A stretch of 64,000 bases of DNA, taken from the IMG/VR virus record IMGVR_UViG_2571042690_000019. One strand, written 5' to 3'. Made by a program: the position numbers and the translations under genes. This DNA is from a virus (lineage: Duplodnaviria > Heunggongvirae > Uroviricota > Caudoviricetes). The notes beneath the pieces are model-generated. The model searched no databases and was not told the DNA's origin. It was given only the letters and a program-made list of their open reading frames with translations. Shown one piece after another: positions 15,868 through 56,128 of the stretch. The number at the start of each line of letters is the position of its first letter. The stretch's first letter is position 1.

Positions 15868-16183
15868 ATTGGCAGCCTCCTTTGACTAAGTTAAGGAGCT
15901 ACCGCGTGAGGTTCCAATCTCAATGGCGGTAGCACTGACTGGGTTGGAACTACCGGCGTCAAAGGGAACCGGCCTGCCTTTCGGCAGCCCAGCCAGCACT
16001 ACCATTGATCTCTGAGCTAAACGCTAAGTATGGCTGTGCGATGGCATGACACAAAAAAAGACGCGTTCGGCGTCTGTGTCGCCTTTGACATTATCCGGGG
16101 TTCCAATCCCGGCACCCGTTTTTCTAAGGTGCCGTAGAAATATACCCCACGATAATGCCATGGCGCAACAGTCAGTATTTTAT

Positions 16184-29406: not shown

Positions 29407-29786
29407 TGAGGCATATATCACCGGAAGAACTTATTGCGCTTCATGATGCGAATATAAGCCGCTACGGCGGCCTGCCGGGAATGTCAGATCCGGGTAGGGC
29501 AGAGGCCATTATCGGGAGAGTTCAGGCCAGAGTTGCCTACGAAGAGATCACCGACCTTTTCGAAGTCTCCGCCACCTACCTGGTGGCTACGGCGAGAGGG
29601 CATATATTCAATGATGCCAATAAGCGTACCGCGCTAAACAGTGCGCTGCTATTTCTACGCCGTAACGGTATACAGGTATATGATTCTCCCGTGCTGGTGG
29701 AACTTGCGGTGGGGGCCGCAACTGGTGAAATCCCCGTATCTTCAGTAGCGGAAAAACTACGTGAATTATTTGGTTCCAATATTTGA
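29406..29786 (+). CDS. doc: toxin Doc (Fic-fold)
   Basis: [39 protein letters not shown]... matches P1 Doc; ATGA overlap with phd. Confidence 0.9.
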
Positions 29787-29788
29787 AA

Positions 29789-29816
29789 AGAAGCCCGCTC
29801 AACCAGGCGGGCTTCC
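29789..29816. terminator. bidirectional terminator hairpin between convergent doc and minus-strand operon
   Basis: AAGCCCGC-N8-GCGGGCTT hairpin. Confidence 0.5.
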
Positions 29817-29821
29817 TACTA

Positions 29822-30916
29822 TCACTCAATGATTTTTTCTGCTGTCAGCCAGCTAATTTCTTGCCTGTCTTTCGGCGGTTTTAGCATGTGGGCGTATTCA
29901 GCGACATTCTCCCACGAAATTGTTTTTGCCCACTCAACGATAGCATTGTGATCTGCAGTGAAGAGTGGAATGGTGTGCGATTTCAACCATTCTAATGTCG
30001 TGACGCCATGTTTTTTGGCGTGGTGCTGCGCATGATGCCGGGCTATCACTCGTAATGGTATTGTCCATTCACTACCATCAGGCATCGAAAAGCGCATTGT
30101 CTTCGGCATATCTGATTCAAGAACAGCCTCCCTAATACCAGGGAACTCACCAAGAATCATACGACGATAGTCATCACTATTTCGCCCGCCATACCTTTCG
30201 GCAAAATGATCAAGATATTCTTGGGTAATAAATGGTGAATCCTCCGCACTCAGCTTAATGGCTTTATATACACCACTCGGATTATCTTCAGCTAAAGCAC
30301 GTCCATGATGTGAATCATAAAAAAAGCCTATTTCCTCTGGTGACGGAATTGAAGTGAGCAATATGCGTGAATCACCACTAGTCATGCTTGCCCACACAAT
30401 GCTGTATGCCTGATCGCTGATATGTGCGGAATCCACAATAATGAATAAAAGATGGTCGGCGTAGTGACCTGCAATGCTATCTTCATAGTTAAGGCGGAAG
30501 TTACAAAAGCACATTCCCCAAAATTCATTGAACATCAGACCGCTATCACCGACCTTAAAATACTCAATGATAAAAGGTTGTTTTTTCAGCAATGCCTCCC
30601 AACATTGCCACACATATGCAACAATTCCTCTTTTGCAAACATTTGATTTTGGATAAACAATTACTGTCCGGGAATCAGGATACATAATCGTATAAAGGGT
30701 ACTAATAACAGCAAGCACTTGCGGTCGTCCGATCCCATACGGAGTGGTGACAGTAGCTTTTGCATTATTGGGCTGTATAGCTTCAACAATTTGTTGTTGC
30801 TGGTGGCTTAAATCAATATCAAACAATTCTTTTGCTGCCAGTACCCAATTGTCTTTATATTTCTCCACCAGCGACAGCCAGCGCGGATCTTTATAAATAT
30901 TGCTCTTAGTCGCCAT
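29822..30916 (-). CDS. terminase large-subunit ATPase-domain paralog with substituted Walker A and Walker B motifs (predicted inactive)
   Basis: aligns with PacB-like ORF 36005..37513 over ~270 aa (DPRW, SHQQQQI, FYDSHH, EYGGR); Walker A GHGTGKS replaced by PYGIGRP, Walker B LDEAS replaced by VDSAH; nuclease domain absent. Confidence 0.7.
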   Translation of the reverse strand: MATKSNIYKDPRWLSLVEKYKDNWVLAAKELFDIDLSHQQQQIVEAIQPNNAKATVTTPYGIGRPQVLAVISTLYTIMYPDSRTVIVYPKSNVCKRGIVAYVWQCWEALLKKQPFIIEYFKVGDSGLMFNEFWGMCFCNFRLNYEDSIAGHYADHLLFIIVDSAHISDQAYSIVWASMTSGDSRILLTSIPSPEEIGFFYDSHHGRALAEDNPSGVYKAIKLSAEDSPFITQEYLDHFAERYGGRNSDDYRRMILGEFPGIREAVLESDMPKTMRFSMPDGSEWTIPLRVIARHHAQHHAKKHGVTTLEWLKSHTIPLFTADHNAIVEWAKTISWENVAEYAHMLKPPKDRQEISWLTAEKIIE

Positions 30917-31673
30917 CTGCCACTTCCTTAACTTCTTCTTTGGCCTGTTCTGCAATCGCCGCACGGCATTTCGCCCTGGCTGTAGCGATTGCTTCAGCTC
31001 GCACATCGTCTGGAATCGTTGACGTGATATACATATCCAGTTCTTCGGCACGGAATACTGTTTGGTCCAGATATTCGCGTAGCATCCAGGTAAATTCGAA
31101 ATCACACGCGATAATCTCTGCGCTACCTTCTGCACCATTTGGGAAATGAATAAATGCCTGTTTAGCCAAACCGATAACACGACATGCGGTTGCCAAAACA
31201 GCGACAACCAGGTTTACATTTTCACACGCTACGGGCTGGTTAACGCCGGAGATTACTCCATTTAACTGTCGGTTATATGGAAGGTAGTTTGAGATGCGTT
31301 CTACGCGCCATGTGCCAGTCAGGCTGCCATTTTTAAATATAATTGGTGTAACGGATAGCCCAAGCTCGCGTATAAGTCGTTGCGCTATAGCAGGATCATT
31401 AAACAGGTCTAATGCTACACATTCGAAAGACTGCGCAAGGGCAAACAGTTCTTCCAGAGAGTAGTCTTTGCCCCTGGCGGTGATGTAACGACGAACGCCG
31501 CTGTCTGCATCACTCCATATAGCTACGCCATGCTCTTCATTCAGCTCTTCATTAAAGCCGAGATACGTCATGATAGTGCGTTCAATCGTGTCAAACGGCA
31601 GTGACATGTCGGCGTTAACAGCCACCAGCAGGCCATTACGCAAGCGGTATTGAATTGTTTTAGTGCTTTCCAT
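30906..31673 (-). CDS. hypothetical protein
   Basis: 255-aa ORF immediately upstream of the terminase paralog. Confidence 0.55.
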   Translation of the reverse strand: MESTKTIQYRLRNGLLVAVNADMSLPFDTIERTIMTYLGFNEELNEEHGVAIWSDADSGVRRYITARGKDYSLEELFALAQSFECVALDLFNDPAIAQRLIRELGLSVTPIIFKNGSLTGTWRVERISNYLPYNRQLNGVISGVNQPVACENVNLVVAVLATACRVIGLAKQAFIHFPNGAEGSAEIIACDFEFTWMLREYLDQTVFRAEELDMYITSTIPDDVRAEAIATARAKCRAAIAEQAKEEVKEVADGD

Positions 31674-31679
31674 GTCAAA

Positions 31680-32120
31680 TCACTCCACAACAAACCAGTC
31701 ACAGGCCAGCAGGTCGCCAACTGAAGGCACCCACGGAACAACTACACCTTGTGCATTTTTTAAGGCGAAATAAGCACCATACGGAACGAGGTCGCCGGGG
31801 AAATATCCCTTAATGGCTTCCATTCGTGCCGGGTACTGTCCTTCAGGAACCAGCCAGCAGAATTGGTTTTCGCCGTTCCACCCGCGTCGAGCAACTTTCT
31901 TGCCTTCCTTCAGCCACATCAGCGCGTCTGAAAAGTCGGCTGCTTCAAGGTCGATTTCTTCTTGCTGGGTGGTGATGCCACCAGCAGAAATAGTTACGCT
32001 CCCGGTAAGATTAATCATCACGCCGTTGTCATCCGTAATGATGACCGTGGTTCCATTTTTTTTGTGAGCTTTGTATTTGGGACGGAACTTAAAAAGCTCT
32101 TTCGTTGCCATGTTATTCAT
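31680..32120 (-). CDS. DUF2829-like phage protein
   Basis: ALMWLKEGKKVARRGWNG segment; paralogous to C-terminal half of ORF 39767..40342. Confidence 0.5.
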   Translation of the reverse strand: MNNMATKELFKFRPKYKAHKKNGTTVIITDDNGVMINLTGSVTISAGGITTQQEEIDLEAADFSDALMWLKEGKKVARRGWNGENQFCWLVPEGQYPARMEAIKGYFPGDLVPYGAYFALKNAQGVVVPWVPSVGDLLACDWFVVE

Positions 32121-33102: not shown

Positions 33103-33443
33103 CGACGCCCCCTTGCAGGATATCGACCGGCATTAGTATCCGGTGCAATAAAGCCGGTAGTGGGGCGAGTGAAAGCGAGATTAATCTTCTCGACCATAGT
33201 GCGATAATTTTCCTGATAGTGGGCCAGGAGTTTTTCGGCGGCAATGATGGTTACTTTCCGGACGTAGCTTTCTGCTTCCTCCAGATTTCGCCAGTTTTTT
33301 TCGAGGGTAAACACAGGGACGGCCTCAAGCCCGGTCATGATGCCGAACACAACGACAGCATGACTGTTCTTAACACCAGCGGCGAAGGTTACGGTGTAAC
33401 CATCCACCTTGAAGCGTCTTGATTCCGTGATTTGACTCTGCAA
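33099..33443 (-). CDS. hypothetical protein
   Basis: 114-aa ORF, first gene downstream of the recombinase. Confidence 0.45.
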   Translation of the reverse strand: MQSQITESRRFKVDGYTVTFAAGVKNSHAVVVFGIMTGLEAVPVFTLEKNWRNLEEAESYVRKVTIIAAEKLLAHYQENYRTMVEKINLAFTRPTTGFIAPDTNAGRYPARGRR

Positions 33444-33516
33444 AGCACCCTCCTAAATAGGCGAGGGTACTTTACAGCAAAGGCGTTAATCTAAAAAGAT
33501 GTGTTAGAATTTTAAT

Positions 33517-34545
33517 TTACGAATCCATCAGGCGGCTATTAGCCCCCACAGACACGCCGCCACGGCGAAGATACCGCATAAGTGTTTCCGGTTTCTTCCA
33601 GGTTCCTTCCTGCATGATCTCCACCATAGACACCTGCTTTTCAGCCATATCAATAGCGGCCCCGACGCGTGCACTATGCCCAGTCCACGTCCGGTATCTT
33701 CCTTTGTTTGGCGTAGCATCTCTTTTATTCAGCAACACCCAGGCGTCGCTGAATATTTTCTCCATTGCAGGTGCAGTAAGGGGCGTTGTCGTAATCCTGG
33801 CCTTATTGCTACGGTGTATCGGCGGGAACAGCACCGCGTCAGGATGTTCACGAAGCCCGGAAACATCCAGCCAGTCATTCAGCACAGCAGTAGTGCGACG
33901 GGAAAGCACCTTATCAAGCCCGGCGGCGGTCGTTATTGTCTTCGTGTGTGAAATATGTAGCGTGACAGTGTCACCTGTTTGGTCCAGATCTCCTACACGA
34001 ATACGCGAGATTTCCGACATACGCATCAGCGTATTGTATGCAACAAAGAGAAAAGCCCGGTTGCGCTGGTCCACCAGCCGTTCTGACCTGGACAGCAGGA
34101 CGTCGAGCAGTTTCAGGTCGTCCCACCGCAACGGTATAGCCTGGCCTGTTCGCTCGCCTTTTTCCGTTGCCGCTTCACGCCGGATGCGCCGCATGGCCAG
34201 AGACACACTTTTATCGTCCGACAGCGGCGGGAGGCCACATTGCGAAAGCAGCATGTTAAGCATGGCATAGTGCTTATCAATGGTGGTCGAAGCCAGATCA
34301 GCATCATGCAGCTGAAGAAAATACTCGCGGGCCATCTCTGGTGAGATCGGGAACCAGGCGAGCTGGCGAGCGTGACACCATCTCGCCCAGGAGTGAAACA
34401 CTAACCGGAGATCGCGCAAAGTATTCGGCGCGTAAGCCCCCTGGTCATTCATGAACCGCATAAAGTTTTCTGCGGCCTCCTGGTACTCTTTGCCAATGTT
34501 GCGCAGAAAACCACCGGAGCTGCCAGAGATAATTAATTTACTCAT
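33517..34545 (-). CDS. dre: Cre-family tyrosine site-specific recombinase (Dre-like)
   Basis: 342 aa colinear with Cre; catalytic-region match GHSARVGAA...GTW...RYLRR (His, Arg, Trp, Tyr positions conserved); adjacent site matches the D6 rox sequence as I recall it. Confidence 0.8.
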   Translation of the reverse strand: MSKLIISGSSGGFLRNIGKEYQEAAENFMRFMNDQGAYAPNTLRDLRLVFHSWARWCHARQLAWFPISPEMAREYFLQLHDADLASTTIDKHYAMLNMLLSQCGLPPLSDDKSVSLAMRRIRREAATEKGERTGQAIPLRWDDLKLLDVLLSRSERLVDQRNRAFLFVAYNTLMRMSEISRIRVGDLDQTGDTVTLHISHTKTITTAAGLDKVLSRRTTAVLNDWLDVSGLREHPDAVLFPPIHRSNKARITTTPLTAPAMEKIFSDAWVLLNKRDATPNKGRYRTWTGHSARVGAAIDMAEKQVSMVEIMQEGTWKKPETLMRYLRRGGVSVGANSRLMDS

Positions 34546-34697
34546 GAAACTATTTAACCTCTATATACAGATGACGCTACGCGAAAAATATAAAAATGAC
34601 AGGGTAGCTATAAGTTAATTTTCAAGATTCAAGCCTTTGATCCGAGGCACGTATTTTCAGTGATGTCAACACTGATCATCTACCCATGATTATAGCC

Positions 34698-34729
34698 TAA
34701 CTTTAAATAATGCCAATTATTTAAAGTTA
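34698..34729. promoter_or_regulatory. lox-like recombination site (rox-type): TAACTTTAAATAAT-GCCA-ATTATTTAAAGTTA
   Basis: perfect 14-bp inverted repeat with asymmetric 4-bp centre; outer TAACTT...AAGTTA shared with loxP; ~150 bp upstream of the recombinase start. Confidence 0.75.
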
Positions 34730-34910
34730 TAAAATGCCGATTTTTTTTAATCCATCATAGATTGATGATGACCAGTAACACGTTGCCTTCATGGTCTTTA
34801 ATTTGCGAAGTGTGGTTTCTACGGTTGGTTTTCTAAAATTGATGACAAAAAATCACAGTTCGATCCTTTACTCACTCTGTTATTCGACATAAATTTGTCA
34901 TAGTAATTTT

Positions 34911-34925
34911 ATGTTAGAAAACTAA
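34911..34925 (-). promoter_or_regulatory. operator-like motif TTAGTTTTCTAACAT immediately upstream of gene 34940
   Basis: dispersed conserved motif 15-29 bp before ATG. Confidence 0.45.
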
Positions 34926-34939
34926 ATCGAGTAGGAATA

Positions 34940-35977
34940 ATGAGTAAGAAGTCGATCGAGAAAGAGTACAAACGGTTCCTGCAAACCGCTGAACGGTGGA
35001 AAGAGCTGGTGGTCGCAAACTCTGTTTTCCATGATACCAGTTATGCTGGCGAGGAATTCCGCCATGTTGCATTAACGCATGACCAAAACATATTAGAAGA
35101 AGCTGAAAAATGTCTTGCTGAATGGAAAGCCTTCGTTGACATGTGCCGCGATGCCGACGGCAAAGCGTCGAACATTGTTGAGTCTGTATATTCTCCGATC
35201 CCATTCATCATTGAGGACACCAATCAAAGCACGCATGTCGTTGTGCAAAGCGCTACAACAACACGTACATTTACACGTGAACAATTGCTAAAAAAATACG
35301 ACAAAATCATAAAGAAAAGCCTTAAAAATAGGGTTTTTTCTCAAATCGTAGGTGATCTTGAAGAAGAACAGCGCTTCTTTGAAGCTGAGCCTGAAGGCGA
35401 GATCTACCGGGCGCGTAAAGAGGCATATACAGATGTTGTGCTGACAACAAACATCGAAGGCAGCAATGCCCTTTCTCGCTTTAGAGTTGGCGCACATGGT
35501 GCATTGGTTTTCGCAAGACTACCGAAGACAACGATCCCCGTTGTCAATAATGTTGGTGAACGCCGGAGCATTACAATTTATTCTGGCGTCGAATCGGTAC
35601 CTTGCAGCCTTCTCGGCGATTTTAACTTATATCGTGTTCGTGACCTGGAAAAACACCAGCCAAGCTATGTTGCGAAGTCGTACATCTTAAGGAACATCGA
35701 TATTCGCAATGAAAGCCTTAAGCAGAAATCCGCTAAGATGCTGGAGGATGCCGATCCGGCTATTCGCCATATCATTGAGCGTAAGATACGTACATCACGT
35801 GAAGCAATGGCAAGGCTGGATAAAATGGATCTGGAATTGTTAGACGTAATGATGGCCTCTGGAGACGACCTGACCGGCATTAAACTGAATGAAGCTCGTA
35901 AAAAATACGGCAAAGCAATCGAAGAACGTTACGGATACACATTCCCCCAAACGCAGTACGCCGCGAAGCTCTGGTAA
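34940..35977 (+). CDS. hypothetical protein at the position of the P1 immunity repressor c1 (between pacB and the lox site)
   Basis: 345-aa ORF with RBS; functional call is by synteny only, no sequence similarity to C1 could be confirmed. Confidence 0.55.
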   Translation: MSKKSIEKEYKRFLQTAERWKELVVANSVFHDTSYAGEEFRHVALTHDQNILEEAEKCLAEWKAFVDMCRDADGKASNIVESVYSPIPFIIEDTNQSTHVVVQSATTTRTFTREQLLKKYDKIIKKSLKNRVFSQIVGDLEEEQRFFEAEPEGEIYRARKEAYTDVVLTTNIEGSNALSRFRVGAHGALVFARLPKTTIPVVNNVGERRSITIYSGVESVPCSLLGDFNLYRVRDLEKHQPSYVAKSYILRNIDIRNESLKQKSAKMLEDADPAIRHIIERKIRTSREAMARLDKMDLELLDVMMASGDDLTGIKLNEARKKYGKAIEERYGYTFPQTQYAAKLW

Positions 35978-35986
35978 TCACAACCG

Positions 35987-36010
35987 GCCCCGCATCGCGG
36001 GGCTTTATAT
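35987..36010. terminator. bidirectional terminator between convergent genes
   Basis: GCCCCGC-ATC-GCGGGGC hairpin followed by TTTATAT. Confidence 0.6.
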
Positions 36011-37513
36011 ATCCAGATCCGGCATTTCGATATCCGCCAGAACCTGATCTCGGAAAGTTGCCATTTCGGCACCAATATCTTCATTAGCAGGCACATAGTC
36101 CACCAGCATAGTGAAGCAGTAGGTATCCCATCGGTCAGGCGATTTGATGTTTAGCTTTTGCCGCATGTGCTCTTTGCGCATCATCGCCATTTTCCCTTCT
36201 TCATTCAGTAAAAAGGGGATTTTTGACGCTTGCTCTGCCGTTTTAGGGTCACTGTCTATCCGCATACGCCCTGACTTTATGGCATCACGCGCCATAATGT
36301 TTGCGTAGGCACGCTGATTAACAAATCGCTCCCTGTCTTTGTTCGCAAACATGGGTTTTCCCCACCGAATACGTACCGGGTTCGCACCACGACGCACCAA
36401 CTGCGCACACGTATCAGAACCAAAACCATCAGCATCAACCGCGATTGTTATATTCGGGTATTTTTCCGGCGTACATTCGTTATATATGAAGTCAGCAAAG
36501 GCCAATGGGTCCATAGTGCCAGGCATCTCCATTACCTTAAAGTTAACAACGCGCCGCTTATCCCTGTGACCTGATACCTTGCAGATGTTGAGGACCGACT
36601 TATCTCGCCCATTACCAACGTCAGCCGTTGCCACCCATCCCCAGTTTTTCTCCAACAACACCTTGCGGCGAGCAGAGCGATCGCATTCATCACGACCAAG
36701 CAAATAGCCGTTAATTTCTCGTGGGAACTGACCAAGCACCTTGACCATGTACTCAATAGAATCGCGCCCACCATATTCCAGAAGCTTCTCCTTGATGAAT
36801 TGTGGTGTGACGAACGGTGATTCTTCCGAGTTAAGAACAATTGCTGTCCAGATCCCTTTCGGGTTGTCTGGGGTTTTTGCTCGAGAATGGTGCGAATCGT
36901 AGAAATAACCACTTGGCCTTGTTGGCTGGGATAGCATCAACATCCGGTTATCTTCTTCAGTAAGAGCACCGGTCATTACGCCGATCGCCTTATCAGATAT
37001 ACCAGATGCTTCATCCAGAATTAGAAGCAAATGTGCCGCGTGTTCCCCCGCCAGCGCTTCTTCGTTGCCGAGTCGATAACCTTTGCAGAGAACTTCCCAA
37101 ATCCCCTTACGGGAGCGCTCATAAAACATGGTGTCAGAGAGGACAAAATAGGTCTGCAACCACCCATGACGCTTAACTGCATTCGCCCAATACTGTTTAA
37201 CGTATTTGAATACGCCTGTTTTTACCTGGCCTATCTTGTTAGCAACAATGATGACACGGGCATCGGGGAACAGGATCATAAAAATCAACAGCAACATCGC
37301 GGTAAGGGACGACTTCCCCGTTCCGTGTCCGGACGTGACGGTCGTCCTACTCCCCGTTTCCTGCACTGACTGAATGATCTGCTGCTGCTGGTGGGAGGGG
37401 AACATCCCAAAAATATCGACTACAGCCTGGGTAAAGTTGTAGCGGTATTTGATTACCATATCGCGCCAGCGTGGATCGCTGGTGACGCATTTAATCTTGC
37501 GCCCGCCAGCCAT
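36005..37513 (-). CDS. pacB: terminase large subunit (PacB-like)
   Basis: Walker A SGHGTGKS, Walker B LLILDEAS, C-terminal nuclease-like DADGFGSD; start overlaps upstream stop. Confidence 0.75.
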   Translation of the reverse strand: MAGGRKIKCVTSDPRWRDMVIKYRYNFTQAVVDIFGMFPSHQQQQIIQSVQETGSRTTVTSGHGTGKSSLTAMLLLIFMILFPDARVIIVANKIGQVKTGVFKYVKQYWANAVKRHGWLQTYFVLSDTMFYERSRKGIWEVLCKGYRLGNEEALAGEHAAHLLLILDEASGISDKAIGVMTGALTEEDNRMLMLSQPTRPSGYFYDSHHSRAKTPDNPKGIWTAIVLNSEESPFVTPQFIKEKLLEYGGRDSIEYMVKVLGQFPREINGYLLGRDECDRSARRKVLLEKNWGWVATADVGNGRDKSVLNICKVSGHRDKRRVVNFKVMEMPGTMDPLAFADFIYNECTPEKYPNITIAVDADGFGSDTCAQLVRRGANPVRIRWGKPMFANKDRERFVNQRAYANIMARDAIKSGRMRIDSDPKTAEQASKIPFLLNEEGKMAMMRKEHMRQKLNIKSPDRWDTYCFTMLVDYVPANEDIGAEMATFRDQVLADIEMPDLDI

Positions 37514-38877
37514 TAATCATCCTCCGGCGGTTCTATCGCGATATCATCATCTCCGGCGTCATACCCTGCATCAGATGCATCATAATCACCGTAAATTTCA
37601 GCCGTTGCCGAAGGGTCAATATCCAGCTCTTCGTCGTTGGCCTCGAATTCTCCAGCTTTACGCTCGCCATTGCGGTCGTAATCTCCGCACCCCAATTCTT
37701 CAACAATGGTTGCCACATCCGCCCGGCGCTCTGCCAGCCATTGCGGATGGTTAGCCTGAAGCGTTGCAAACTCCCTTGCCTCTTTGTCCAGCTGTTCATC
37801 ATCAACATCATTGACGTCAGAAACAGGTGGTTCGAGAAGAGTGATAGCTTTCGCCGCGCGCGCCGCGAGGATAGCCGGGACGCTGACACCCTGGCGCTCG
37901 ATGTATTCAGCAACACCGATATCATCCAGTTCCTCGCGCTCACGCATACGTATAGCGGCGGCGATAACTCTGGCTGCGCGTGCGTCAGCGCCAATGCGAT
38001 ATTCAATCTCTTTGCCACGCTGTTCGGCCTGTAGGCGTGCTAATTCGAGTTTTTCTCTGGCCTCAGCCTCTTTGAATGCTTGCTGGCGAGCGCTCTGACG
38101 AAGCTTTTCATCCCCCTGTCGCAGCTTTTGTTCGGACTGATATATAGCTGCCAACCTACTGATAAAATCATTCATGTAGTAGGCCGCGTCACTGATTAGA
38201 CCGAGAAGGCGCTGCCCAGGGTGCATTCCTTCTGGCTCTTTATCGCCCAAGGCGTCTATTTCCGCCTGTAGACGTTCGGCCTCCTGATCAACAATGCTTT
38301 GATACTGAAGTGCGCGCTCTTGCGCCATTTGAATTGCTAACCGCAGGTGTTCTTCTGCGCCGTTCTTCATCATATCGCGAGCCACATTCGTAGTTGGCAA
38401 TGTGGCACGCTGCACAGCACCGTCAGGGATCATTGCAGAAGATCCCTCAATTTTTGGGGCGTTTTTATCTTCTTCGGGGATCATTTTCGCCATTTTTTCG
38501 CGCAATGATCTCCTGACAGATTCTTTTATCTCATTGTTATTATTTGAATTATTTTCATGATCCGAAGTTTTCTTTCTCGGCATACTTCGGAAAGAACCTG
38601 CGCCCTGCGAATTGTCAATTTCTGTAAATTTTGTTTTTTCTGCACCCTCTTCCAGCTTTTTTGTTGCTCTTCCCGCCCGTTTTTTTTCAGGTGATTTGGT
38701 GCTTTTTTTTGTTGTCTTTACCTGCGACCGCACCTCATTTTTTTTCATATTGAGATGCTTTCTGGCTGTATTGAAGCTAAGGCCATGCTCCTCACAGTAT
38801 TCCTTTACAGTGATCCCTTTTTCTTCACGCAACGCTATAAAGCGGGCGCGGTGCTCCTCCCAATTAACCAGACTCAT
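37513..38877 (-). CDS. pacA: terminase small subunit-like protein (PacA-like), acidic C-terminus
   Basis: 454 aa directly upstream of and coupled to large terminase; N-terminal HTH-like segment; synteny pacA-pacB-c1-lox-recombinase. Confidence 0.5.
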   Translation of the reverse strand: MSLVNWEEHRARFIALREEKGITVKEYCEEHGLSFNTARKHLNMKKNEVRSQVKTTKKSTKSPEKKRAGRATKKLEEGAEKTKFTEIDNSQGAGSFRSMPRKKTSDHENNSNNNNEIKESVRRSLREKMAKMIPEEDKNAPKIEGSSAMIPDGAVQRATLPTTNVARDMMKNGAEEHLRLAIQMAQERALQYQSIVDQEAERLQAEIDALGDKEPEGMHPGQRLLGLISDAAYYMNDFISRLAAIYQSEQKLRQGDEKLRQSARQQAFKEAEAREKLELARLQAEQRGKEIEYRIGADARAARVIAAAIRMREREELDDIGVAEYIERQGVSVPAILAARAAKAITLLEPPVSDVNDVDDEQLDKEAREFATLQANHPQWLAERRADVATIVEELGCGDYDRNGERKAGEFEANDEELDIDPSATAEIYGDYDASDAGYDAGDDDIAIEPPEDD

Positions 38878-40796: not shown

Positions 40797-40872
40797 TGGT
40801 GGCCCCTACCGGACTTGAACCGGTGACCGTGCGATTATGAGTCGCCAGCTCTAACCACTGAGCTAAGGGGCC
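40797..40872 (-). tRNA. tRNA-Ile (anticodon CAU, ileX-like) or tRNA-Met
   Basis: GGCCCCTTAGCTCAGTGGTTAGAGC...CTCATAA...GGTTCAAGTCC...GGGGCCACCA; cloverleaf folds; near-identical to E. coli ileX as recalled. Confidence 0.75.
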
Positions 40873-40881
40873 AATTAGTTT

Positions 40882-40995
40882 TTATTTTCGACGCCTGAGA
40901 TTCTTCGCTACTTGTTCTACTCCGTATACGATCACAAGCAGAAATAGCAAAGACCATCCAGGGTTCTTATCAATATACGTCCAAAAATCCATCAT
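40882..40995 (-). CDS. possible small membrane peptide (36 aa)
   Basis: manual translation MMDFWTYIDKNPGWSLLFLLVIVYGVEQVAKNLRRRK; ATGA overlap with upstream ORF. Confidence 0.25.
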   Translation of the reverse strand: MMDFWTYIDKNPGWSLLFLLVIVYGVEQVAKNLRRRK

Positions 40996-41156
40996 GAGTT
41001 CCTGAACGCAGCTTTAATAATCGGCAATAGCAATACCACAGCTACTGAAACCAGTGCCCCATCAGCCAACACCGACATCACTTTGCTGGTGAAATCCACC
41101 AGCACGGACAAAACGAGAAAACCAATGGCGCACGCAATACGCGCCTTGCCAATCAT
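40992..41156 (-). CDS. possible small membrane peptide (52 aa)
   Basis: manual translation MIGKARIACAIGFLVLSVLVDFTSKVMSVLADGALVSVAVVLLPIIKAAFRNS; TAATG overlap with TerB-like gene stop. Confidence 0.35.
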   Translation of the reverse strand: MIGKARIACAIGFLVLSVLVDFTSKVMSVLADGALVSVAVVLLLPIIKAAFRNS

Positions 41157-41590
41157 TACAGATAATCTTCCACACGAAGGCCCAAACGACGGCCTACTTC
41201 TTCCAGTACTTTGTGTTCTGCTGGCTCGATTTCACCGTCCGCTTCTGCAATCGTCAGCATGTTAACGAATACTTCTTCCGCTTCTTTTGGATCATTTTTG
41301 ATATCTTCAATTTCGCGAAGGATATTCATGCGACCAACACGGAAACCAGCTTCCAGTTGCTCAGTAAAACGGGTGATTGTTGCGGTAATTTCGTTGCCAA
41401 AATGACTTAAGCGAGGATTAGAGCGGACAAGCTGATCAAGTTTCGCTGTTTCTTCCTTTTCGATTTCACCATCTGCGGCAGACACCAACAAACAGCCACC
41501 GATAATGGCCTCCATCAGATCGCGATTCTCAACCCTTTTCAGCTCTACTTTTGCTGAAGCGACTTTCTTACCGAAAAATTTACCGAACAT
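41156..41590 (-). CDS. TerB-like protein (tellurite-resistance TerB fold; P1 tciA-like)
   Basis: 144 aa with repeated ADGEIE-type acidic motifs; located in the tRNA cluster as tciA is in P1. Confidence 0.5.
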   Translation of the reverse strand: MFGKFFGKKVASAKVELKRVENRDLMEAIIGGCLLVSAADGEIEKEETAKLDQLVRSNPRLSHFGNEITATITRFTEQLEAGFRVGRMNILREIEDIKNDPKEAEEVFVNMLTIAEADGEIEPAEHKVLEEVGRRLGLRVEDYL

Positions 41591-41857
41591 TGGTTATCCC
41601 TCAATAAACATGACGTATTTATTAGGTTGCGGTGCCTGGTGCCTCCAGGTGACGTTAACCAGTTAACAATTAACGCCGGGATGTTTGACTTAACCACTAA
41701 GGAGGATTGTTTTAACTGTTCCGCGTGCGCATAGCCGCATTCACCGCAATGGTAAGAGCACTTGGCTGGCTGGGCGGCGATGACGCCTGTACGCATTTGG
41801 TGATCCGGTTCTGCTTCCGGCATTCGCTTAATTAGCCAAATACTCTTAACGTTGCAC

Positions 41858-41944
41858 TGGCGGAGAGTAATGGAATCGAACCATCATCGCTTGCGCAATG
41901 GGACGGTTTTCAAGACCGTTTGAGCACCATGCTCCCTACTCTCC
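41858..41944 (-). tRNA. tRNA-like gene, possibly tRNA-Ser (anticodon UGA), non-canonical A8
   Basis: 7-bp acceptor stem, anticodon arm ACGGT-CTTGAAA-ACCGT similar to E. coli serT, long variable arm, TTCGATT T-loop, 3' CCA; D-arm atypical. Confidence 0.35.
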
Positions 41945-42277
41945 AGTGATTGTGATGGTCGGTGCTGAACTCCGACACAGGGTTGTAGCAAGCCCCGCAA
42001 AGCGCGCACTACTGTAGTTGCGGCACATCAGCCTGTGCATTCACCACAATGTTGAGAACACTGGTTGTCACGCTGCAACGCAACATTTATTCGTAGATTG
42101 GGATATGACCCCGTTACGCCAGTGTTCTCAACGTTATAGTGCCGGTTACGGTTCCGGCCAGGCCTCTTCCTCAACGGGGTGTTCTCCATACGGACTACCG
42201 TTTATTGGTCGTTCCTGCGGTTTATGTTGTGAAGCCAGATGCTTATCTTCTGGTTGCTTCAAAGAGCTGCACTTCAT

Positions 42278-42345
42278 CACAACGGTAAGAGCACTCGATG
42301 CATTTAAGCCAAGCCCCATAAGGGAGAATGCCCTTACCTGTTGTG
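42278..42345. repeat. conserved-stem hairpin element (CACAACGGTAAGAGCAC ... GCCCTTACCTGTTGTG)
   Basis: imperfect inverted repeat sharing stem consensus with elements at 42474..42560 and 42917..42991. Confidence 0.5.
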
Positions 42346-42473
42346 TTGTGATGACCGGTGCTGATCTCCGGCTTGCGGTTATTTCAGACTCTCACGGGCG
42401 TTTAATTGCCCCGCCGAACAGCTCTTTTCCGCAATAGCTGCAATGTCTTTCGCGCATCAGCCTGCGCATTCAT

Positions 42474-42560
42474 CACAACGGTAAGGGTACTTCGTAGGGA
42501 TTCGAACCCTCTGCCAAGCTCGGCGATCTCCGACGTCGCAAAATACCCTTACCTGTTGTG
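42474..42560. repeat. conserved-stem hairpin element enclosing a tRNA-like T-arm fragment (GGGATTCGAACCC)
   Basis: CACAACGGTAAGGGTAC ... TACCCTTACCTGTTGTG inverted repeat, immediately downstream of tRNA-Thr on the minus strand. Confidence 0.5.
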
Positions 42561-42561
42561 C

Positions 42562-42637
42562 TGGTGCCGATTAACGGACTCGAACCGCTGACATCCTGCT
42601 TACAAGGCAGGCGCTCTACCAACTGAGCTAAACCGGC
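42562..42637 (-). tRNA. tRNA-Thr (anticodon UGU)
   Basis: GCCGGTTTAGCTCAGTTGGTAGAGC...CTTGTAA...GGTTCGAGTCC...CGGCACCA cloverleaf. Confidence 0.8.
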
Positions 42638-42639
42638 AT

Positions 42640-42715
42640 TGGCGATGGTGGATGGATTTGAACCATCGACCCGTTGATTAACAGTCAACCGCTCTAACCG
42701 CTGAGCTACACCATC
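42640..42715 (-). tRNA. tRNA-Asn (anticodon GUU)
   Basis: GATGGTGTAGCTCAGCGGTTAGAGC...CTGTTAA...GGTTCAAATCC...CACCATCGCCA cloverleaf. Confidence 0.8.
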
Positions 42716-55782: not shown

Positions 55783-56128
55783 AGTTACGGCCTCACTAAC
55801 AGGTTTAACAACCTGCTACCCGCTGTCAAACAGGTGGCAGGACGTGACAGGGTTGACAGACTGGCGTTAGTGAAACCAGCAGGCCGAAGCCTCCCCATCA
55901 CGCCCCACCATAATTCGGGCGTAACGTGGTTTACGGACACAAAAATACCGCAATATCGGAAATCTGCGGTTGTCCGCACTAACATTCAGGCTGTCAAACC
56001 TGGTCGCAGAATTTGCTACGACGGCATGAATATAAGCCTGAAAACATGGAAGATCAACTAAAAATTTCAGCAATGGATGACTTCAGTCGATGATGCAGAT
56101 CATACATTCCGATTTAGAAACAGCAAAT

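What the first reader, a model, noticed from the sequence alone, without database searches (positions are those of the whole stretch)
33517..34730. Cre-family recombinase with an adjacent 32-bp lox-like site (Dre/rox-type)
The 342-aa recombinase conserves the Cre catalytic His, Arg, Trp and Tyr positions. About 150 bp upstream of its start lies TAACTTTAAATAAT-GCCA-ATTATTTAAAGTTA, a perfect 14-bp inverted repeat with asymmetric centre sharing TAACTT/AAGTTA with loxP. The site matches the rox site of phage D6 as I recall it, so this looks like a Dre/rox system in the pac-c1-lox-recombinase synteny.
Basis: partly seen in the sequence, partly recalled or inferred. Interest (0 to 1): 0.5.

Follow-up and report, generated by a model that had tools for sequence, protein, structure and literature searches.

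The report
Dre recombinase with its rox site

Summary
The observation and the interpretation both hold. The ORF at 33517-34545 (minus strand, 342 aa) matches phage D6 Dre at 339 of 342 residues (E3K, H102Q, L160Q). All seven Cre active-site residues are kept, as are the three residues reported to set rox versus loxP specificity. The palindrome at 34698-34729 is identical, 32 of 32 bases, to the annotated rox site of D6 and to the published rox sequence. It lies 152 bp upstream of the dre start, in the order pacA-pacB-c1-rox-dre. The window is a D6-like, P1-family phage-plasmid. The exact protein is already public (106 contigs), annotated only as "tyrosine-type recombinase/integrase". The same locus occurs in more than 120 enterobacterial plasmids and 21 IMG/VR contigs.

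Two small extras came up. The only 11/12 sigma-70 promoter match in the 64-kb window has its -35 hexamer (TTGGCA) on the rox core and reads into dre. Its -10 box is kept in all 25 rox-bearing sequences examined, which suggests Dre may repress its own gene. Divergence from D6 also drops sharply at rox, and different c1 alleles are joined to the same dre/rox, as expected if rox is used as a crossover point in nature.

Novelty: already known. Interest: low.

The parts
33517..34545 (-). dre: Dre tyrosine recombinase, 342 aa. It is a natural allele with K3, Q102 and Q160 where D6 Dre has E3, H102 and L160.
   Evidence: 339/342 aa identical to D6 Dre. There are 45 nucleotide differences, giving 41 synonymous and 3 non-synonymous codon changes. 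Pfam Phage_integrase 1.2e-16. The best solved structure is Cre, 2e-68. Catalytic residues R175, E178, K202, H290, R293, W316, Y325. Specificity residues R44, P259, K263 (PMC4957104). The exact sequence is public on 106 contigs.
34698..34729 (.). rox: 32-bp Dre target site. Arms are 34698-34711 and 34716-34729; the asymmetric 4-bp core GCCA is 34712-34715.
   Evidence: Single copy in the window. Matches the annotated D6 rox 32/32 and the published rox sequence. Invariant in relatives whose Dre is only 89-94% identical.
34689..34716 (-). Predicted sigma-70 promoter reading into dre. The -35 TTGGCA (34716..34711) is the rox core plus the innermost base of each arm. A 16-bp spacer follows, then the -10 TATAAT (34694..34689). 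The transcription start would fall near 34682.
   Evidence: 11/12 match to consensus. It is the only match of 11/12 or better in 64 kb on either strand; block shuffles give 0.8 per window. TATAAT is kept at the same spacing in 25/25 rox-bearing sequences although the bases on both sides of it vary. This is a prediction only.
34546..34697 (-). dre leader (rox-dre spacer), always 152 bp. It contains a conserved TGATCA (Dam GATC, 34673-34678) next to a conserved TTGACA.
   Evidence: The spacer length is identical in all 21 loci with a complete or partial dre. The conserved blocks are visible in the 4-way alignment.
34940..35977 (+). c1: prophage repressor, 345 aa, transcribed away from rox.
   Evidence: 99.7% identical to D6 C1. 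Listed as synteny context.
36005..37513 (-). pacB: terminase (pacase) large subunit.
   Evidence: 99.2% identical to D6 PacB. Listed as synteny context.
37513..38877 (-). pacA: terminase (pacase) small subunit.
   Evidence: 98.8% identical to D6 PacA. Listed as synteny context.

Best explanation
The locus is the Dre/rox site-specific recombination module of a D6-like, P1-family plasmid prophage.

Mechanism, as established for Cre and reported for Dre: one Dre monomer binds each 14-bp arm of rox. Two rox sites synapse in a Dre tetramer. Tyr325 cleaves one strand pair in or beside the asymmetric core, forming a 3'-phosphotyrosine link. Strand exchange gives a Holliday junction, which isomerises and is resolved by the second pair of cleavages. 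No cofactor or accessory protein is needed.

Biological role, inferred by analogy with Cre/lox in P1: the system circularises injected, terminally redundant phage DNA, and it resolves plasmid-prophage dimers into monomers so that the low-copy plasmid is inherited stably.

What is shown here: identity of the protein, the site and the gene order with D6, and purifying selection on dre.
What comes from the literature: Dre recombines rox and not loxP.
What is inferred: that this three-substitution allele is active, and the two biological roles.
For: - Protein: 339/342 identical to D6 Dre, with 41 synonymous and 3 non-synonymous codon differences, which indicates purifying selection.
- Site: rox is identical to the annotated D6 site and to the published sequence.
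- Active site: all seven Cre active-site residues align.
- Specificity: R44/P259/K263 correspond to Cre K43/R259/G263, the residues whose swap lets Cre act on rox (PMC4957104).
- Origin and activity: D6 origin and lack of Cre cross-reactivity are stated in PMC12331466 and PMC4957104.
- Synteny: pacA-pacB-c1-rox-dre-orf117-orf116-dut is seen in every rox-bearing locus long enough to show it.
- Replicon type: the locus sits on ~90-kb plasmids, 126 of 129 places in complete E. coli genomes.
- Use in nature: divergence from D6 falls from 55/1181 to 5/1181 across rox (p = 6e-12), and c1 alleles of 80%, 89% and 100% identity are joined to ~99% identical Dre.
Against:
- L160Q is seen only in this window and in L010 among 21 alleles, and its effect is unknown.
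- The cyclisation role needs rox to lie inside the terminal redundancy of the first headful. I could not locate pac by sequence, because there is no P1-type cluster of TGATCR hexamers in pacA.
- The divergent patch in dre is itself patchy (33814-34113 is 99.3% identical), so ordinary homologous recombination also contributes to the mosaic.
Confidence: 0.95

Rival explanations
1. The gene is a decaying or inactive copy of dre, and the site is a relic.
For: There are three amino-acid changes relative to the characterised Dre. One of them, L160Q, is rare among natural alleles.
Against: The reading frame is full length, and all catalytic and specificity residues are intact. The 41:3 ratio of synonymous to non-synonymous changes argues for selection. 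The identical protein occurs on 106 public contigs. rox and the 152-bp spacing are invariant.
Confidence: 0.03
2. The system mainly serves to integrate the element into a chromosomal pseudo-rox site, like a classical phage integrase, rather than to circularise DNA and resolve plasmid dimers.
For: 3 of 129 matching places in complete E. coli genomes are on chromosomes. These were not examined further.
Against: 126 of 129 places are on plasmids of about 90 kb. No exact rox was found in 185,579 species-representative genomes. There is only one rox in the window. A single symmetric-arm site next to the gene is the Cre/lox layout, not an attP/attB layout.
Confidence: 0.02
3. The palindrome is primarily a transcriptional element, namely a promoter or operator of dre, and only secondarily a recombination site.
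For: An 11/12 sigma-70 match has its -35 on the core, and its -10 is conserved in 25/25 sequences.
Against: The same 32 bp is the experimentally validated Dre substrate (PMC4777119, PMC4957104). A double function is possible, but recombination is the documented one. The Pantoea pox-like relative has no -35-like core.
Confidence: 0

Closest known systems
Dre/rox of Escherichia phage D6 (Sauer & McDermott 2004; GenBank AY753669, MF356679)
   Same: The 32-bp site is identical. The recombinase is 99.1% identical. The 152-bp spacing, the gene order (pacA-pacB-c1-rox-dre-orf117-orf116-dut) and the catalytic and specificity residues are all the same.
   Different: Three substitutions (E3K, H102Q, L160Q) and 4.4% nucleotide divergence within dre. 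The surrounding phage-plasmid differs from D6 further out: about 1.2 kb at 29700-30933 is absent from D6, and 22000-29744 matches RCS47/P1 best, at 95-96%.
Cre/loxP of phage P1
   Same: Same protein family and fold (E = 2e-68 to Cre structures) and the same seven active-site residues. The site lies upstream of the recombinase gene, next to c1 and pacAB. Both sites share TAACTT...AAGTTA.
   Different: Only 40.5% protein identity. rox is 14-4-14 and loxP is 13-8-13, with different inner arm sequences. There is no cra gene between site and recombinase. P1 has coi and imcAB between c1 and lox, which are absent here. The literature reports no cross-recombination (PMC12331466).
Panto/pox of Pantoea sp. 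(Karimova et al. 2016)
   Same: A Cre-like recombinase whose site arms differ from rox by one base and which cross-reacts with rox (PMC4957104). A Pantoea plasmid relative has a pox-like site upstream of its recombinase.
   Different: About 52% protein identity according to the paper. The core differs, the palindrome in the locus examined is imperfect, and there is no -35-like hexamer in its core.

Membership tests
Dre/rox (phage D6 type) | Recombinase orthologous to D6 Dre (AAV84949.1) | tested here: met
   339/342 identical with no gaps.
Dre/rox (phage D6 type) | 32-bp rox target, TAACTTTAAATAAT-GCCA-ATTATTTAAAGTTA, adjacent to the gene | tested here: met
   32/32 match to the annotated rox of AY753669 and to the published string. 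It lies 152 bp from the ATG.
Dre/rox (phage D6 type) | rox-specificity residues R/P/K at the positions of Cre K43/R259/G263 | tested here: met
   R44, P259, K263. The residues are named in PMC4957104.
Dre/rox (phage D6 type) | Location in the immC region of a P1-like phage-plasmid (pacA-pacB-c1-rox-dre) | tested here: met
   C4 antisense RNAs and a tRNA cluster like those of D6/P1 are also present.
Dre/rox (phage D6 type) | Catalyses rox x rox recombination without accessory factors and does not recombine loxP | not testable with these tools
   Known for D6 Dre from the literature. This allele has not been assayed.
Tyrosine recombinase superfamily (Cre-like clade) | Phage_integrase catalytic domain with the R-K-H-R-W/H-Y active site | tested here: met
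   PF00589 at 1.2e-16. R175, K202, H290, R293, W316, Y325, plus E178.
Cre/loxP (phage P1) | Cre orthologue with a 34-bp loxP site (13-8-13) | tested here: not met
   40.5% identity to Cre. The site is 14-4-14 and differs from the P1 lox sequence.

The most novel reading that the evidence does not exclude
The rox crossover core doubles as the -35 hexamer of the dre promoter. Dre bound at rox would then shut off its own transcription. This would be built-in negative autoregulation that is restored after every recombination event, and it may constrain the core sequence. I found no report of it in the papers held. The original 2004 paper could not be read, so it may already be described there.
Probability: 0.35. 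Interest if true: 0.3.

Novelty: already known. Interest (0 to 1): 0.1.

Why it matters
Dre/rox is a standard genome-engineering tool used alongside Cre/loxP, so finding it again in a D6-like prophage adds nothing fundamental. There are three minor points of value. First, database copies are labelled only "tyrosine-type recombinase/integrase", so the Dre identity is hidden in more than 100 plasmids. Second, natural alleles 89-100% identical to this one all keep rox unchanged; they form a ready-made panel of tolerated substitutions. Third, the site may also act as the promoter of its own recombinase, and users who place rox sites in bacterial constructs should know that rox carries a near-consensus -35.

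Tried and rejected
- pac site: I looked for a P1-type cluster of TGATCR hexamers in pacA, to test whether rox lies within the first-headful terminal redundancy. There is no cluster, only one hit at 38285, so D6-type pac cannot be recognised this way.
- GTDB representative genomes: a scan for exact rox gave 0 hits. This is uninformative beyond showing that rox is not a common chromosomal sequence.
- Primary paper: I tried to read Sauer & McDermott 2004 by DOI and by PMC id. It is not held, so its content is cited through PMC4957104, PMC4777119 and PMC12331466.
- Literature on rox as a promoter: a search for promoter activity of rox found nothing relevant.
- Pantoea relative: I tested whether the promoter-in-site layout extends to the Pantoea pox-like relative. 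It does not.
- Faulty alignment: the first alignment to the short D6 record misaligned the left end and included window sequence with no counterpart in that record, so its 82% 'left of rox' figure is meaningless. I repeated it with the complete D6 genome.
- Script errors: several calls failed or read only the first record of multi-record locus files. This was corrected.
- Structure prediction: judged unnecessary, because the protein aligns end to end with Cre structures at 2e-68. No solved Dre structure appeared in that PDB search.

Full report
**Observation**

The minus strand of the window carries an ATG-initiated ORF at 33517..34545 that encodes 342 aa. The sequence TAACTTTAAATAATGCCAATTATTTAAAGTTA lies at 34698..34729. 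It is the only copy in the 64-kb window even with three mismatches allowed, and 100 dinucleotide-preserving shuffles gave none. The site has two perfect 14-bp inverted arms around the asymmetric core GCCA, and it lies 152 bp upstream of the ORF's ATG.

**Identity of the protein**

- Megablast of 33400-35000 against phage records hits only Escherichia phage D6. It covers 100% of the query at 96.1% identity in the immC record AY753669, under features annotated 'dre: tyrosine recombinase', 'region of crossover (rox) site for Dre recombinase' and 'c1'.
- The window protein matches D6 Dre at 339 of 342 residues (E3K, H102Q, L160Q).
- The gene differs at 45 of 1029 nucleotides. These make 41 synonymous and 3 non-synonymous codon changes, the pattern of a gene under purifying selection.
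- Pfam assigns the Phage_integrase domain.
- The closest solved structures are all Cre, at 2e-68 over residues 22-341. No Dre structure appears among the hits.
- A global alignment with P1 Cre, translated from NC_005856, gives 40.5% identity. Cre R173, E176, K201, H289, R292, W315 and Y324 align with Dre R175, E178, K202, H290, R293, W316 and Y325.
- Karimova et al. showed that changing Cre K43, R259 and G263 to the Dre/Panto residues R, P and K lets Cre recombine rox (PMC4957104). The window protein has R44, P259 and K263.
- The three substitutions align with Cre N3, R101 and I158. None is a catalytic or named specificity position.

**Identity of the site**

The 32 bp are identical to the misc_recomb 'rox' feature of AY753669. 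They are also identical to the wild-type rox string printed in PMC4777119, which describes 14-bp inverted repeats around a 4-bp asymmetric spacer. The P1 lox site read from the P1 record is ATAACTTCGTATAGCATACATTATACGAAGTTAT.

**Context**

- The order pacA (37513-38877, -), pacB (36005-37513, -), c1 (34940-35977, +), rox, dre (-), then orf117, orf116 and dut equals that of D6. Protein identities to D6 are 98-99.7%.
- It parallels pacA-pacB-c1-...-lox-...-cre in P1.
- The window also holds two C4 antisense RNAs and a tRNA cluster, as in D6/P1-type phages.
- The locus is common. 144 PLSDB plasmids match, 123 of them at full length, mostly ~90-kb non-mobilisable plasmids of E. coli, Salmonella and Shigella.
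- 124 of 5426 complete E. coli genomes match, and 126 of the 129 places are on plasmids.
- The exact 342-aa protein is already public on 106 contigs (for example CTZ91356.1 and UPI0003D30E25), named only 'tyrosine-type recombinase/integrase'.
- Karimova et al. had already noted Dre/rox in two E. coli strains.
- An IMG/VR contig (L010) is 100% identical to the window in all seven proteins compared.

**Conservation of the pair**

- Exact rox occurs once each on 21 IMG/VR contigs. It occurs in none of the GTDB species-representative genomes.
- Every locus with enough sequence has a Dre-like ORF starting exactly 152 bp from rox. These ORFs are 89.5-100% identical to the window protein.
- Plasmids whose dre DNA is only 87% or 78% identical also keep rox at 32/32, although the intergenic DNA around it has diverged.
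- The site is therefore far more constrained than its recombinase, which fits a DNA target that must remain self-compatible.

**How it works**

I take the Cre paradigm as summarised in PMC4777119, plus my own knowledge of tyrosine recombinases. One monomer binds per arm. Two sites and four monomers form a synapse. Tyr325 attacks one strand pair, a Holliday junction forms, and the second strand pair is then exchanged. No accessory factors are needed.

The biological roles are inferred from established knowledge of P1 Cre/lox. They are cyclisation of terminally redundant injected DNA and resolution of plasmid-prophage dimers before partition. I could not verify the cyclisation geometry, because no P1-type cluster of pac hexamers is recognisable in pacA.

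**Extra 1: a promoter on the site**

- The consensus scan finds an 11/12 sigma-70 match on the minus strand. The -35 TTGGCA is at 34716..34711, the spacer is 16 bp, and the -10 TATAAT is at 34694..34689. It reads into dre.
- The -35 consists of the 4-bp rox core plus the innermost base of each arm. The dre-proximal arm fills most of the spacer.
- It is the only match of 11/12 or better in the whole window. About 0.8 such matches per 64 kb are expected by chance, so the score alone is weak evidence and the position is what counts.
- The -10 lies outside rox, yet it is TATAAT at the same spacing in 25 of 25 rox-bearing sequences. The bases on both sides of it vary: GGC, AGC or TCA before it, and CATG, CTCC or ATTG after it.
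- Dre occupancy of rox would cover this promoter, which suggests autoregulation. This is a prediction.
- A Pantoea pox-like locus lacks the feature.
- I found no mention of it in the papers held. The 2004 primary paper could not be read.

**Extra 2: rox as a natural crossover point**

- Against the complete D6 genome, dre plus its leader (33517-34697) has 55 mismatches in 1181 bp. The equal stretch on the other side of rox has 5 (Fisher p = 6e-12).
- The last mismatch is 14 bp before rox, and the next one is 75 bp beyond it.
- Across loci, ~99% identical Dre alleles are joined to C1 alleles of 100%, 89% (L029) or 80% (L018) identity.
- In L029, homology is lost at the first base past rox.
- This is what Dre-mediated exchange between co-resident relatives would produce. 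The patchiness inside dre shows that homologous recombination contributes too.

**Verdict**

This is a natural allele of a well-known system, so its novelty is 'already known' and its interest is low. The most novel reading the evidence leaves open is that rox doubles as the Dre-repressible promoter of dre.

Noticed in passing
window 34689-34716 (minus strand): A near-consensus sigma-70 promoter (TTGGCA, 16-bp spacer, TATAAT) has its -35 formed by the rox core. It reads into dre and is the only match of 11/12 or better in the window. The -10 is conserved in 25/25 rox-bearing sequences. This suggests Dre could repress its own gene.
   Followed up: partly
window 33517-34729 compared with 34730-35910: Divergence from phage D6 falls sharply at rox, from 55/1181 mismatches on the dre side to 5/1181 on the c1 side. 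In other loci, c1 alleles of 80%, 89% and 100% identity are combined with nearly identical dre. In L029 the homology break falls at the first base past rox. This fits rox acting as a natural crossover point.
   Followed up: partly
window 29822-30916 (minus strand): A 364-aa paralog of the N-terminal (ATPase) half of the terminase PacB: 37% identity over 258 aa, E = 7e-57. Its Walker A and Walker B motifs are degenerate (GHGTGKS becomes PYGIGRP; ILDEAS becomes IVDSAH), it has no nuclease half and it has no Pfam hit. The ~1.2 kb carrying it is absent from D6 and from all phage records by megablast, but it is present in L010, L012 and L029.
   Followed up: partly
window 31680-32120 (minus strand): A 146-aa protein with a Tad2-like (Thoeris anti-defence 2, PF11195) domain, E = 5.9e-23. 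It lies three genes downstream of dre, beyond orf117, orf116 and dut.
   Followed up: no
window 15922-16132 and 55830-56035 (minus strand): Two separate C4 antisense RNA genes (Rfam RF01695). One has an adjacent isrK-like RNA and the other has the a1/b1 target element. This implies two immI-type antirepressor control regions, as annotated in D6.
   Followed up: no
window 40797-42715 (minus strand): A cluster of four tRNA genes (Met-CAT, Ser-TGA, Thr-TGT, Asn-GTT). The D6 record annotates Ser, Thr and Asn at the matching location but lists them on the opposite strand relative to c1, and it has no Met.
   Followed up: no
window 34673-34678 and the aligned block in L008: A conserved TGATCA (Dam site) sits next to a conserved TTGACA in the dre leader. 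The Pantoea relative has three TGATCA copies at the equivalent place, which recalls the Dam-methylation sites in the P1 cre regulatory region. The D6 reference itself lacks this GATC (it has GAACAG).
   Followed up: no
E. coli complete genomes: Three of the 129 matches to the dre-rox region lie on chromosomes rather than plasmids. I did not examine whether these are integrated D6-like elements, or how they inserted.
   Followed up: no
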